Shown: in pieces, positions 18,001 through 21,000 of the stretch
Layout of the letters: each line of letters begins with the position of its first letter
Position numbering within the stretch: the stretch's first letter is position 1
DNA from: a virus
Lineage: Duplodnaviria; Heunggongvirae; Uroviricota; Caudoviricetes
Direction: 5' to 3' (one strand)
IMG/VR virus record: IMGVR_UViG_2529293142_000011
Length of the DNA stretch: 23,222 nt
Position numbers: made by a program

Positions 18001-21000
18001 GAGAAAGAGCTGGCGCTGATGGGCGAGGATTATCAGGACATTTTCCGCCAGCAGGTCAGGGAATCTGCTGAGCGGCAAAAAGCCGGACTCTCACGTCCGG
18101 TGTGGATAGCGCAGGCGTATCAGCAGCAGATAGCGGAGAGTCGCAGGCCGGAAGAGGAGACAACACCACGTGAGACGTAATCTTTCACACATTATTGCCG
18201 CAGCATTCAATGAACCGCTGCTTCTGGAGCCCGCCTATGCGCGGGTTTTCTTTTGCGCGCTCGGGCGCGAGATGGGGGCAGCAAGTCTTTCGGTACCACA
18301 GCAGCAGGTACAGCTTGATGCTCCCGGAATGCTGGCTGAAACGGACGAGTACATGGCCGGAGGTAAACGACCGGCCCGTGTTTACCGGGTGGTGAACGGT
18401 ATTGCTGTACTGCCGGTGACCGGCACGCTGGTGCACCGGCTGGGGGGTATGCGGCCATTTTCCGGAATGACAGGCTATGACGGCATTGTCGCCTGTCTTC
18501 AGCAGGCAATGGCGGATAGCCAGGTGCAGGGCGTACTGCTGGACATTGACAGTCCGGGCGGGCAGGCCGCCGGCGCGTTTGACTGCGCTGACATGATTTA
18601 CCGCCTCCGTCAGCAGAAGCCGGTCTGGGCACTGTGCAATGACACGGCCTGTTCTGCAGCCATGCTGCTGGCGTCGGCCTGCTCCCGACGGCTGGTTACC
18701 CAGACATCCCGTATCGGCTCCATTGGCGTGATGATGAGCCATGTCAGCTATGCCGGTCATCTGGCGCAGGCCGGTGTGGATATCACGCTGATTTACTCAG
18801 GGGCGCACAAGGTGGATGGCAATCAGTTTGAAGCCTTACCGGCAGAGGTTCGCCAGGACATGCAGCAGCGCATTGATGCGGCGCGCCGGATGTTTGCCGA
18901 AAAAGTGGCCATGTTTACCGGTCTGTCTGTTGATGCCGTCACGGGAACAGAGGCCGCCGTTTTTGAAGGTCAGTCCGGCATTGATGCCGGGCTGGCGGAT
19001 GAATTAGTCAATGCGTCGGATGCCATCAGTGTGATGGCCACGGCGCTGAACAGTAATGTCAGAGGAGGCACTATGCCGCAATTAACTGCAACGGAAGCCG
19101 CCGCGCAGGAGAACCAGCGAGTGATGGGGATCCTGACATGCCAGGAAGCGAAAGGACGTGAACAGCTTGCCACGATGCTGGCAGGACAACAGGGCATGAG
19201 CGTTGAACAGGCCCGGGCGATTCTGGCCGCGGCGGCACCGCAGCAGCCGGTGGCATCCACGCAGAGTGAAGCCGATCGCATTATGGCGTGTGAAGAAGCG
19301 AACGGTCGTGAACAACTGGCGGCAACGCTGGCGGCGATGCCGGAGATGACGGTGGAAAAAGCCCGCCCGATCCTGGCTGCTTCACCGCAGGCGGATGCCG
19401 GACCCTCACTCCGTGATCAGATCATGGCACTGGATGAGGCAAAAGGGGCTGAGGCGCAGGCTGAACAGCTGGCTGCCTGCCCGGGAATGACTGTGGAGAG
19501 CGCCCGGGCTGTGCTGGCTGCGGGATCAGGTAAGGCAGAACCGGTCTCTGCATCCACAACCGCCCTGTTTGAACGCATCATGGCGAACCATTCACCGGCA
19601 GCGGTACAGGGTGGCGTGCCACAGACGTCAGCAGACGGTGATGCGGACGTGAAAATGCTCATGGCTATGCCATGAAGTCAGTGCTGACCATCAACAGGAG
19701 GTTTTTACAATATGGTAACGAAAACCATCACTGAACAGCGTGCGGAAGTACGTATTTTTGCCGGTAATGATCCGGCTCATACCGCCACAGGCAGCAGCGG
19801 GATTTCCTCGGCAACACCGGCACTGACGCCCCTGATGCTGGATGAAGCTACCGGGAAACTGGTGGTCTGGGACGGACAGAAAGCCGGTAGTGCGGTTGGC
19901 ATACTGGTACTGCCGCTTGAAGGCACAGAGACGGTACTGACGTATTACAAGTCGGGGACCTTTGCGACGGAGGCAATCCGCTGGCCTGACAGTGTGGATG
20001 AACACAAAAAGGCAAATGCCTTTGCCGGCAGTGCCCTGAGTCACGCGGCGCTGCCGTAACACGTTATCAGGCCACCGCGGTGGCCTGACTGATTTCTGAA
20101 TGAAAGGAACTGATTTATGGGATTGTTTACGACCCGCCAGTTACTCGGTTATACCGAACAAAAAGTGAAATTTCGTGCGCTGTTTCTGGAGCTGTTTTTC
20201 CGCCGTACGGTGAATTTCCATACCGAAGAGGTGATGCTGGACAAAATTACCGGAAAAACGCCGGTGGCGGCCTATGTCTCCCCGGTTGTTGAAGGAAAAG
20301 TGCTGCGTCATCGCGGTGGTGAAACCCGCGTGTTACGTCCGGGCTACGTCAAGCCGAAACACGAATTTAATTACCAGCAGGCGGTTGAGCGTCTTCCCGG
20401 TGAAGATCCGGCTCAACTGAACGACCCGGCCTACCGTCGTCTGCGTATCATCACCGATAACCTCAAACAGGAAGAGCATGCCATTGTCCAGGTGGAAGAA
20501 ATGCAGGCGGTGAATGCCGTGCTGTATGGCAAATACACCATGGAAGGGGATCAGTTTGATACTGTCGAGGTGGATTTTGGACGCTCTGAAGGAAATAACA
20601 TTGAGCAGGCCGACGGTAAAAATGGTCTGAGCAGGACCGTGATACGTTTGATCTGACGCATGATATTGACCTCTACTGCGATCAGGCCAGCGGTCTTGTG
20701 AATATTGCCATTATGGACGGTACTGTCTGGCGTCTGCTGAATGGTTTTAAGCTGTTCCGAGAAAAACTGGATACCCGTCGCGGCTCAAATTCACAACTCG
20801 AAACGGCAGTGAAAGACCTGGGGGCGGTGGTGTCTTTCAAAGGGTATTACGGCGATCTGGCCATTGTGGTGGCGAAAACGTCTTATGTGGCAGAGGACGG
20901 TACCGAAAAACGTTATCTGCCGGAGGGCACGCTGGTCCTGGGAAATACGGCTGCAGATGGGATCCGTTGTTACGGTGCCATTCAGGATGCGCAGGCGTTG

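What the first reader, a model, noticed from the sequence alone, without database searches (positions are those of the whole stretch)
20611..20630. Major capsid gene E broken by a single-base frameshift in an A5 run
The two ORF-track pieces of E are joined by the +1 frame across ggtAAAAAtgg; one extra A would give a continuous lambda-like capsid protein. Either this is a genuine inactivating mutation (no virions possible) or a homopolymer sequencing error. The distinction changes whether this prophage can form particles.
Basis: seen in the sequence. Interest (0 to 1): 0.5.

Follow-up and report, generated by a model that had tools for sequence, protein, structure and literature searches.

The report
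Capsid gene frameshift, probably assembly error
The lambda-like major capsid gene really is split by one missing A in a run of A's, but the same 23 kb carries seven more one-base losses in A/T runs that almost no related genome shares, so this is most likely a sequencing or assembly error and not a dead capsid gene.

Summary
An A5 run at 20618-20622 splits a lambda-E-type major capsid gene (20117-21144). Adding one A restores a 342-aa protein that aligns end to end with lambda gpE.

The break is not a single event. Against seven close, annotated relatives the window has 9 private one-base indels, 8 of them contractions of A/T runs, and at most 12 private SNPs. Contraction rises with run length (A/T4 1/155 to A/T8 2/3; G/C runs 0/101). 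The V-like tail tube gene is also frameshifted, the Z-like tail gene has a 7-residue out-of-frame patch, and LpxR gains one C-terminal residue. All other mapped genes are intact.

No complete RefSeq E. coli genome has A5 (0 of 859). It occurs only in draft or long-read assemblies that carry other, deletion-biased one-base indels nearby.

Verdict: most likely homopolymer under-calling (about 0.8). A real mutation (about 0.17) cannot be excluded without reads. Even if real, "no virions possible" overstates it, because head-defective lambdoid prophages can be packaged through complementation by co-resident prophages. Interest is low.

The parts
20117..21144 (+). Lambda-E-type major capsid gene, 1028 nt here against 1029 nt in all intact relatives
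   Evidence: annotated 'major capsid protein', 1029 nt; PF03864; lambda gpE 7vi9, E = 1.6e-133.
20618..20622 (+). A5 run where relatives have A6; this is the site of the frame break
   Evidence: The A5 probe gave 0 exact matches in 860 records. In IMG/VR, A5 was found in 1 contig and A6 in 52.
20117..20656 (+). N-terminal E fragment, 179 aa. Residues 5-168 match Phage_cap_E profile positions 1-160, followed by an 11-residue out-of-frame tail.
20623..21144 (+). C-terminal E reading frame (WSEQDRD... to the stop). The mechanical ORF starts at the GTG at 20698 (148 aa, profile positions 191-329).
20654..20654 (+). Window-private C>T change. It gives Pro>Leu in the true E frame (lambda ...YDPTDD...) and creates the TGA that ends the frame-0 fragment.
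   Evidence: 0 of 61 other loci have T.
21987..22013 (+). Z-like tail gene: A5>A4 after 21990 plus an extra A at 22013, giving a 7-residue out-of-frame patch (NAIPAAS > TPFRRLQ) with the gene length preserved
   Evidence: No full-length exact match in 995 genomes.
23197..23199 (+). A3 run where relatives have A4. It frameshifts the V-like tail tube gene (start 22873) from about residue 109 (...RAYKIRFPNG > ...[11 protein letters not shown]).
   Evidence: 0 of 1611 records are exact and the best is 83/84. 0 of 41 loci share it.
5425..5430 (-). A6 run where relatives have A7, at the 3' end of lpxR. The C-terminus changes from FFF* to FFFN*.
   Evidence: The window allele is in 4 of 620 records.
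6397..6403 (.). Intergenic T7 run where relatives have T8
7610..7616 (.). Intergenic T7 run where relatives have T8
8725..8729 (.). Intergenic T5 run where relatives have T6
11014..11019 (.). Intergenic A6 run where relatives have A7
   Evidence: The window allele is in 11 of 681 records.

Best explanation
The split capsid gene is most likely an artefact of the assembly. The true sequence probably has A6 at 20618-20622 and an intact 342-aa lambda-E-type major capsid protein. The consensus under-called the length of this A run by one base, as it did at seven other A/T runs in the same 23 kb. Shown here: the window carries a private excess of one-base contractions that is confined to A/T runs and depends on run length; the A5 allele is otherwise found only in indel-rich assemblies. 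Inferred: the cause is base-calling or consensus error (long-read-only or pyrosequencing-type data). No reads are available to prove this.
For: (1) Against 7 full-length annotated relatives the window has 9 private indel columns, 8 of them -1 in A/T runs and 1 a +A, and 19 panel-private SNPs. Larger panels cut the SNPs to at most 12. The 7 relatives together have 6 private indel columns and 123 private SNPs (Fisher p = 1.3e-4).
(2) Contraction rises with run length: A/T4 1/155, A/T5 1/79, A/T6 2/24, A/T7 2/9, A/T8 2/3. G/C runs show 0/101, and there are 8 contractions against 0 expansions.
(3) In the head-tail segment, checked against up to 61 loci, only 3 SNPs are truly private against 4 private indels.
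(4) 0 of 860 records (859 complete RefSeq E. coli genomes) carry A5. The Z and V indel alleles are also absent from about 1000 and about 1600 genomes. The contracted alleles at 11013 and 5424 are rare, 11/681 and 4/620, and in the rows listed they are in different strains.
(5) The other assemblies with A5 or its frameshift tail have indel densities against L002 of 0.75-9.8 per kb, mostly deletions, with shattered terminase, portal and tail genes. These are DEC12E draft L005, IMG/VR L007, GCA_053291685.1 L011, GCA_910593955.1 L021 and the Logan contigs. Annotated complete genomes show 0.00-0.21 per kb and the window 0.44 per kb.
(6) All other mapped genes are full length with no stops, IS elements or deletions, which does not look like ordinary prophage decay.
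(7) Published profile of long-read assembly errors: mostly false deletions in homopolymers, most often A/T runs (PMC12007338).
Against: No reads or quality values are available, so the error is inferred and not observed. Natural replication slippage also rises steeply with run length (PMC8510543). The A5 allele is shared with the DEC12E draft, which could reflect a real recurrent or inherited allele. A window-private Pro>Leu change at a residue conserved with lambda lies 33 nt downstream, and 8 of the 11 coding private SNPs are non-synonymous. That would fit relaxed selection on a gene that is already dead, although base errors would look the same. The deletion and insertion pair in Z restores the frame, which is what selection on a real mutation would also do. 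The source assembly and its sequencing technology could not be identified.
Confidence: 0.8

Rival explanations
1. This is a genuine A6>A5 slippage mutation, so the prophage cannot make its own major capsid protein and is a defective prophage. Each fragment (profile positions 1-160 and 191-329) carries only part of the Phage_cap_E domain, so neither should assemble into a capsid (inference). Particles could then form only with E supplied by a co-resident lambdoid prophage or after recombination.
For: The break is unambiguous in the sequence. DEC12E and an IMG/VR contig carry the same A5. The private Pro>Leu in E and the mostly non-synonymous private SNPs fit relaxed selection. Head-gene defects are common in EHEC-type lambdoid prophages, and such prophages are still packaged by complementation (PMC2669165).
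Against: The mutation would have to be accompanied by seven other private A/T-run contractions, at an indel-to-SNP ratio about ten times that of the relatives. There are none of the usual signs of decay: no nonsense codons, deletions or IS elements in the other mapped genes. A5 is absent from 859 complete genomes carrying 1043 copies of this stretch, even though many of those prophages must be old. Every other A5 carrier found is an indel-rich assembly.
Confidence: 0.12
2. The indels and transitions are real and come from a mismatch-repair-deficient (mutator) host lineage. Such lineages accumulate transitions and one-base homopolymer indels, and the prophage, being neutral, has kept them.
For: 11 of the 12 private SNPs are transitions. 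All but one of the private indels are in mononucleotide runs and depend on run length, which qualitatively matches the MMR-deficient spectrum described in PMC8510543.
Against: MMR-deficient E. coli gives 5,324 indels per 30,061 substitutions (PMC8510543). Nine indels among 21 private changes is more than that predicts (binomial p = 0.002), and the true private SNP count is probably lower still. The 8:0 bias toward contraction and the lack of any G/C-run change are not known features of the mutator spectrum (my recollection; not checked in the papers read). A genome-wide load of this size would be heavily deleterious.
Confidence: 0.05
3. The A5 run is a recoding site: ribosomal -1 frameshifting or transcriptional slippage restores full-length E at low level.
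For: The required shift is -1 and lies within an A run read by a Lys tRNA (sequence).
Against: T-AAA-AAT is not an X XXY YYZ heptamer. A run of five A's is, to my knowledge, too short for efficient RNA polymerase slippage. All 859 complete genomes, and relatives down to 93% identity, encode E in a single frame with A6, so the split is not conserved.
Confidence: 0.01

Closest known systems
Bacteriophage lambda major capsid protein gpE (Pfam PF03864 Phage_cap_E; PDB 7vi9, 7sj5)
   Same: The repaired 342-aa product aligns over 1-341 with lambda gpE 1-340 (E = 1.6e-133). The only gap is a single residue far from the junction (near residue 258), and the Pfam profile is matched in full. The gene order is also the same: Nu1/A-type terminase, W, portal, S49 protease, D, E, FI, FII, Z, U, V.
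   Different: As written in the window the gene is one base short and is read as two fragments. There is also a private Pro>Leu in the stretch that aligns with lambda YDPTDD.
Homopolymer under-calling in long-read-only or pyrosequencing assemblies (gene-fragmenting false deletions)
   Same: The changes are one-base deletions confined to mononucleotide runs, mostly A/T, and more frequent in longer runs. They break otherwise conserved genes, as described for MinION assemblies in PMC12007338. The same A6 run is contracted in several demonstrably indel-rich public assemblies.
   Different: The density here (0.44 indels per kb against L002) is lower than in the worst assemblies (3-10 per kb). The sequencing technology of the source is unknown.
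Defective lambdoid prophages of EHEC/EPEC (for example Sp prophages of O157:H7 Sakai)
   Same: It is a lambdoid prophage of the EHEC/EPEC pool, with an lpxR moron and a NanS-p-like SASA esterase downstream of Q, and with an apparent head-gene defect. Such defects are documented and are complemented in trans (PMC2669165).
   Different: According to that paper the Sakai prophages contain multiple genetic defects across several functional modules. Here the only lesions are one-base changes in A/T runs.

Membership tests
Phage_cap_E (PF03864), lambda gpE-type major capsid protein | Full-length match to the family profile above the curated cut-off | tested here: met
   Repaired protein: 224 bits against a cut-off of 22.9, profile 1-329/329. 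The two fragments match positions 1-160 and 191-329 separately.
Phage_cap_E (PF03864), lambda gpE-type major capsid protein | Collinear similarity to the solved lambda gpE capsid protein | tested here: met
   7vi9_A, E = 1.6e-133, residues 1-341 against 1-340, no gap at the repaired junction.
Phage_cap_E (PF03864), lambda gpE-type major capsid protein | A single uninterrupted ORF encoding the whole fold | tested here: not met
   As written, the window has 1028 nt and two frames. The feature is met only after adding one A.
Lambda-like head gene module | Gene order terminase, W, portal, protease (C), D, E, FI, FII, then the tail genes Z, U, V | tested here: met
   Annotation of the relatives mapped onto the window.
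Assembly artefact (homopolymer under-call) | Excess of one-base indels over substitutions compared with trusted close relatives | tested here: met
   9 private indels against at most 12-19 private SNPs, versus 6 against 123 in the relatives; Fisher p = 1.3e-4.
Assembly artefact (homopolymer under-call) | Indels confined to homopolymers, deletion-biased and length-dependent | tested here: met
   8 of 9 are -1 in A/T runs of 4-8 bases. The rate rises from 0.6% (length 4) to 67% (length 8), with no expansions.
Assembly artefact (homopolymer under-call) | Raw reads or an independent chemistry disagree with the consensus | not testable with these tools
   No reads are available, and the source assembly was not found in any collection searched.
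Genuine prophage pseudogene | The same lesion is present in independent high-accuracy assemblies of the lineage | tested here: not met
   0 of 859 complete genomes carry it. The only carriers are DEC12E (which has two further one-base deletions in the 4-kb contig, one a G4>G3 in the FII-like gene), IMG/VR L007 (5 further indels) and indel-rich long-read or Logan contigs.
Programmed -1 frameshift or transcriptional slippage site | Slippery heptamer or long A/T run, with the two-frame arrangement conserved in relatives | tested here: not met
   The sequence T-AAA-AAT is only five A's long, and all relatives encode E in a single frame with A6.

The most novel reading that the evidence does not exclude
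The A6 run in E could be a genuine, recurrently slipping switch. In that case independent lambdoid prophages (the window, DEC12E, the IMG/VR contig) really do toggle capsid production off by A6>A5, leaving prophages that depend on siblings for heads. The companion A/T-run contractions would then reflect a mutator episode in the host.
Probability: 0.04. Interest if true: 0.45.

Novelty: not a real feature. Interest (0 to 1): 0.08.

Why it matters
The practical consequence is for annotation. This prophage should not be scored as capsid-defective, nor V-defective, on this sequence alone. The window, and probably its whole source assembly, needs homopolymer polishing before any pseudogene or prophage-viability call is made. 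If the lesion were real it would be one more ordinary defective lambdoid prophage of the EHEC/EPEC pool. Head defects in such prophages are already known to be complemented in trans, so neither outcome changes current understanding.

Tried and rejected
(1) Finding the source assembly. Exact-product look-ups for the N-terminal E fragment, the private Z allele and the private FI allele were all 'not on record'. The A5 pattern was absent from the GTDB representative genomes, and the one IMG/VR hit is a different prophage, 98.4% identical.

(2) The exact 148-aa C-terminal fragment led to DEC12E, which does have A5, and to a metagenome scaffold. The scaffold has A6, and its gene is broken by a run of N instead.

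(3) L046 and L054 looked like closer relatives because they share several 'private' SNP alleles. Direct comparison showed they are only 95% and 93% identical. The apparent sharing of the A4 allele at 21990 by L054 comes from a locally divergent alignment.

(4) I looked for a nanopore methylation-motif signature in the private SNPs. Only 1 of 19 lies in a Dcm site and none in a Dam site, which is uninformative.

(5) A search for how the DEC collection was sequenced found only papers that cite the collection, and none was opened. The idea that DEC12E is pyrosequencing data therefore rests on my memory only.

(6) Recoding was considered and rejected on sequence and conservation grounds.

(7) Run-length dependence alone was rejected as a discriminator, because natural slippage shows it too (PMC8510543).

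Full report
**1. The observation**

The window at 20611-20630 reads ccgacGGTAAAAATGGtctg, and the A5 run occupies 20618-20622. An ORF starting at 20117 reads 168 residues of capsid-like sequence ending ...NNIEQADGK. It then runs out of frame (NGLSRTVIRLI) to a TGA at 20654-20656. The neighbouring frame is closed by a TAA at 20617-19 and then reads KWSEQDRDTFDLTHDID... without interruption to the stop at 21144. Any frame switch must therefore fall between 20620 and 20653.

Inserting one A into the run gives a 1029-nt, 342-aa ORF. That ORF matches Pfam Phage_cap_E across the whole profile (1-329/329, 224 bits). It also aligns with lambda gpE (PDB 7vi9) over residues 1-341 with no gap at the junction (E = 1.6e-133). 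The two fragments cover profile positions 1-160 and 191-329. The observation and the 'one extra A' repair are both correct.

**2. Context**

The window is a lambdoid prophage of the E. coli EHEC/EPEC prophage pool. From 341 to the end it is 99.6% identical to prophages in complete genomes such as NZ_CP148366. The gene order is:

- cII, O, P, ren and the nin genes
- a remnant antiterminator, lpxR on the minus strand, and Q
- a SASA/NanS-p-like esterase, holin, lysozyme, Rz and Rha
- terS, terL, W, portal, S49 protease, D, E, FI, FII, Z, U, V

In 1612 complete genomes the E homologue covers at least 80% of the query. All the top hits span 1029 nt against the window's 1028 and are annotated 'major capsid protein'.

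**3. The break is one of a family of lesions**

A base-by-base comparison was first made with three relatives, then with seven (L002, L003, L004, L022-L025). In all of them the window lacks one base after each of these positions:

| Window position | Change | Location |
|---|---|---|
| 5424 | A7>A6 | 3' end of lpxR |
| 6396 | T8>T7 | intergenic |
| 7609 | T8>T7 | intergenic |
| 8724 | T6>T5 | intergenic |
| 11013 | A7>A6 | intergenic |
| 20617 | A6>A5 | E |
| 21990 | A5>A4 | Z-like tail gene |
| 23196 | A4>A3 | V-like tail tube gene |

There is also one extra A at 22013.

The coding consequences are as follows:

- LpxR changes from FFF* to FFFN*.
- E is split.
- Z keeps its length but has a 7-residue out-of-frame patch.
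- V is frameshifted from about residue 109 and runs off the window.
- The other 28 mapped genes are full length, with no internal stops.

**4. Is this a natural pattern?**

- **Indel-to-SNP ratio.** Against the seven-genome panel the window has 9 private indel columns and 19 private SNPs. The seven relatives together have 6 and 123 (Fisher p = 1.3e-4). Adding RM8352, DEC12E and 52 IMG/VR loci shows that most of the 'private' SNPs in the head-tail part are ordinary shared alleles. Only 20654, 21322 and 21347 remain private there, against 4 private indels.
- **Run length and direction.** Contraction frequency is 1/155 for A/T4, 1/79 for A/T5, 2/24 for A/T6, 2/9 for A/T7 and 2/3 for A/T8. It is 0/101 for G/C runs, and there are no expansions.
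- **Natural baseline.** Relatives that differ from each other by up to about 180 SNPs differ by only 0-5 indels, or 0.00-0.21 per kb. The window shows 0.44 per kb.
- **Mutator expectation.** Even a mismatch-repair-deficient E. coli gives only 5,324 indels per 30,061 substitutions (PMC8510543). Nine indels among 21 private changes exceeds that (p = 0.002).

**5. Who else has A5?**

- A 61-nt probe centred on the run matched 860 records (859 complete genomes, 1043 places). All matched at 61/62, which means A6, and none exactly.
- In IMG/VR the A6 pattern occurs in 52 contigs and the A5 pattern in one. That contig (L007) is only 98.4% identical to the window and has five more one-base indels in the protease, D and E genes.
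- The exact 148-aa C-terminal fragment led to the DEC12E draft (AIHE01000061.1). It also has A5, plus two further one-base deletions against L002 in its 4-kb contig, one of them a private G4>G3 contraction in the FII-like gene.
- A search with the frameshift-specific tail peptide found about 15 further contigs. The two chromosome-sized ones (GCA_053291685.1 and GCA_910593955.1) have terminase, portal, protease and tail genes shattered into many pieces.
- All of these assemblies show 0.75-9.8 indels per kb against L002, strongly biased toward deletions.

So this A6 run is a recurrent under-call site in error-prone data and is not seen contracted in trusted genomes. The contracted alleles at 11013 and 5424 do occur in complete genomes, but rarely (11/681 and 4/620) and, in the rows listed, in different strains. 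The Z and V alleles were not found at all in about 1000 and about 1600 genomes.

**6. Interpretation**

The profile is false one-base deletions in A/T homopolymers of 4-8 bases, plus an occasional stray A insertion, in otherwise intact genes. This matches the published profile of long-read assembly errors (PMC12007338). I therefore take the E frameshift to be an assembly artefact, with confidence of about 0.8. The true gene is most likely intact, and the same applies to V and Z.

What remains for the 'real' reading:

- No reads are available.
- Natural slippage also scales with run length.
- DEC12E shares the allele.
- The window has a private Pro>Leu 33 nt downstream, at a residue conserved with lambda. 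This same C>T creates the early TGA of the N-terminal fragment.
- 8 of the 11 coding private SNPs are non-synonymous and 11 of the 12 private SNPs are transitions. That fits relaxed selection or a mutator as well as base errors.
- The deletion and insertion pair in Z restores the frame, as selection would.

I give a genuine mutation about 0.12, a mutator origin about 0.05 and recoding about 0.01. Recoding is unlikely because there is no slippery heptamer, the run is only five A's, and the split is not conserved.

**7. If it were real**

Each fragment carries only part of the single Phage_cap_E domain, so I infer that this copy would make no functional capsid protein. 'No virions possible' would still be too strong. 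In O157 Sakai, prophages with head defects (Sp4, Sp9, Sp13, Sp15) are nevertheless packaged, which the authors attribute to complementation by co-resident prophages (PMC2669165). Near-identical E genes occur up to five times per genome in this prophage family.

**8. Novelty and interest**

Either way the finding is ordinary: a probable homopolymer artefact, or at most a routine defective-prophage lesion. Its value is as a quality flag for this assembly.

Noticed in passing
window 22873-23222 (site 23197-23199): The V-like tail tube gene is frameshifted by an A4>A3 contraction (...GDVRAYKIRFPNG becomes ...[14 protein letters not shown]). None of 1611 matching records has this allele.
   Followed up: yes
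window 21987-22013 (gene 21940-22473): The Z-like tail gene has a one-base deletion (A5>A4) and a one-base insertion 23 nt downstream. Together they replace 7 residues (NAIPAAS > TPFRRLQ) and keep the gene length. The allele is private to the window. I could not tell whether the pairing is chance, a consensus artefact or real compensation.
   Followed up: partly
window 20654, 21322, 21347: The only truly private SNPs in the head-tail segment are all G:C>A:T transitions and all non-synonymous: E Pro>Leu, FI Ala>Thr and FI Pro>Leu. They could be base errors or real changes.
   Followed up: partly
window 5419-6381 (-), with remnant at about 5208-5280: An lpxR (lipid A 3'-O-deacylase family) moron sits on the opposite strand between the nin/phosphatase genes and Q, next to a truncated antiterminator remnant. 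Its last codon is altered by the A7>A6 contraction (FFF* > FFFN*).
   Followed up: partly
window 1-340: The first 340 bases do not align with the closest relatives, whose identity starts just upstream of cII at 341. This is a mosaic boundary at the immunity/cro region.
   Followed up: no
window 6649-6662: An A7-G7 junction (tacaaaaaaaGGGGGGGcaat): the G run is one base longer than in L002 and L004 but the same as in JB2 (L003). It looks like a naturally polymorphic intergenic run and was not counted as private.
   Followed up: partly
window 7545-10864: The late region downstream of Q has the layout of Stx-phage relatives (hypothetical protein, DUF3927, SASA/NanS-p-like esterase of 616 aa). It has no stx genes, and ARAGORN found no tRNA genes.
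   Followed up: partly
L001 (NZ_CP028110, D gene), L003 (NZ_CP182203), L025 (NZ_CP077479): Several RefSeq 'complete' relatives carry their own PGAP-flagged one-base frameshifts in this prophage: head decoration protein D in RM8352, a hypothetical protein and the esterase in JB2, and a hypothetical protein in 12A. One-base frameshifts in this element are therefore not limited to the window. I did not check whether they lie in homopolymers or whether they are errors.
   Followed up: no
L006 (ENA metagenome scaffold HUAN18-1 scaffold_45586): The same 148-aa C-terminal E fragment was called there because a 17-18 base run of N interrupts the gene, not because of a frameshift. That scaffold has A6.
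   Followed up: yes
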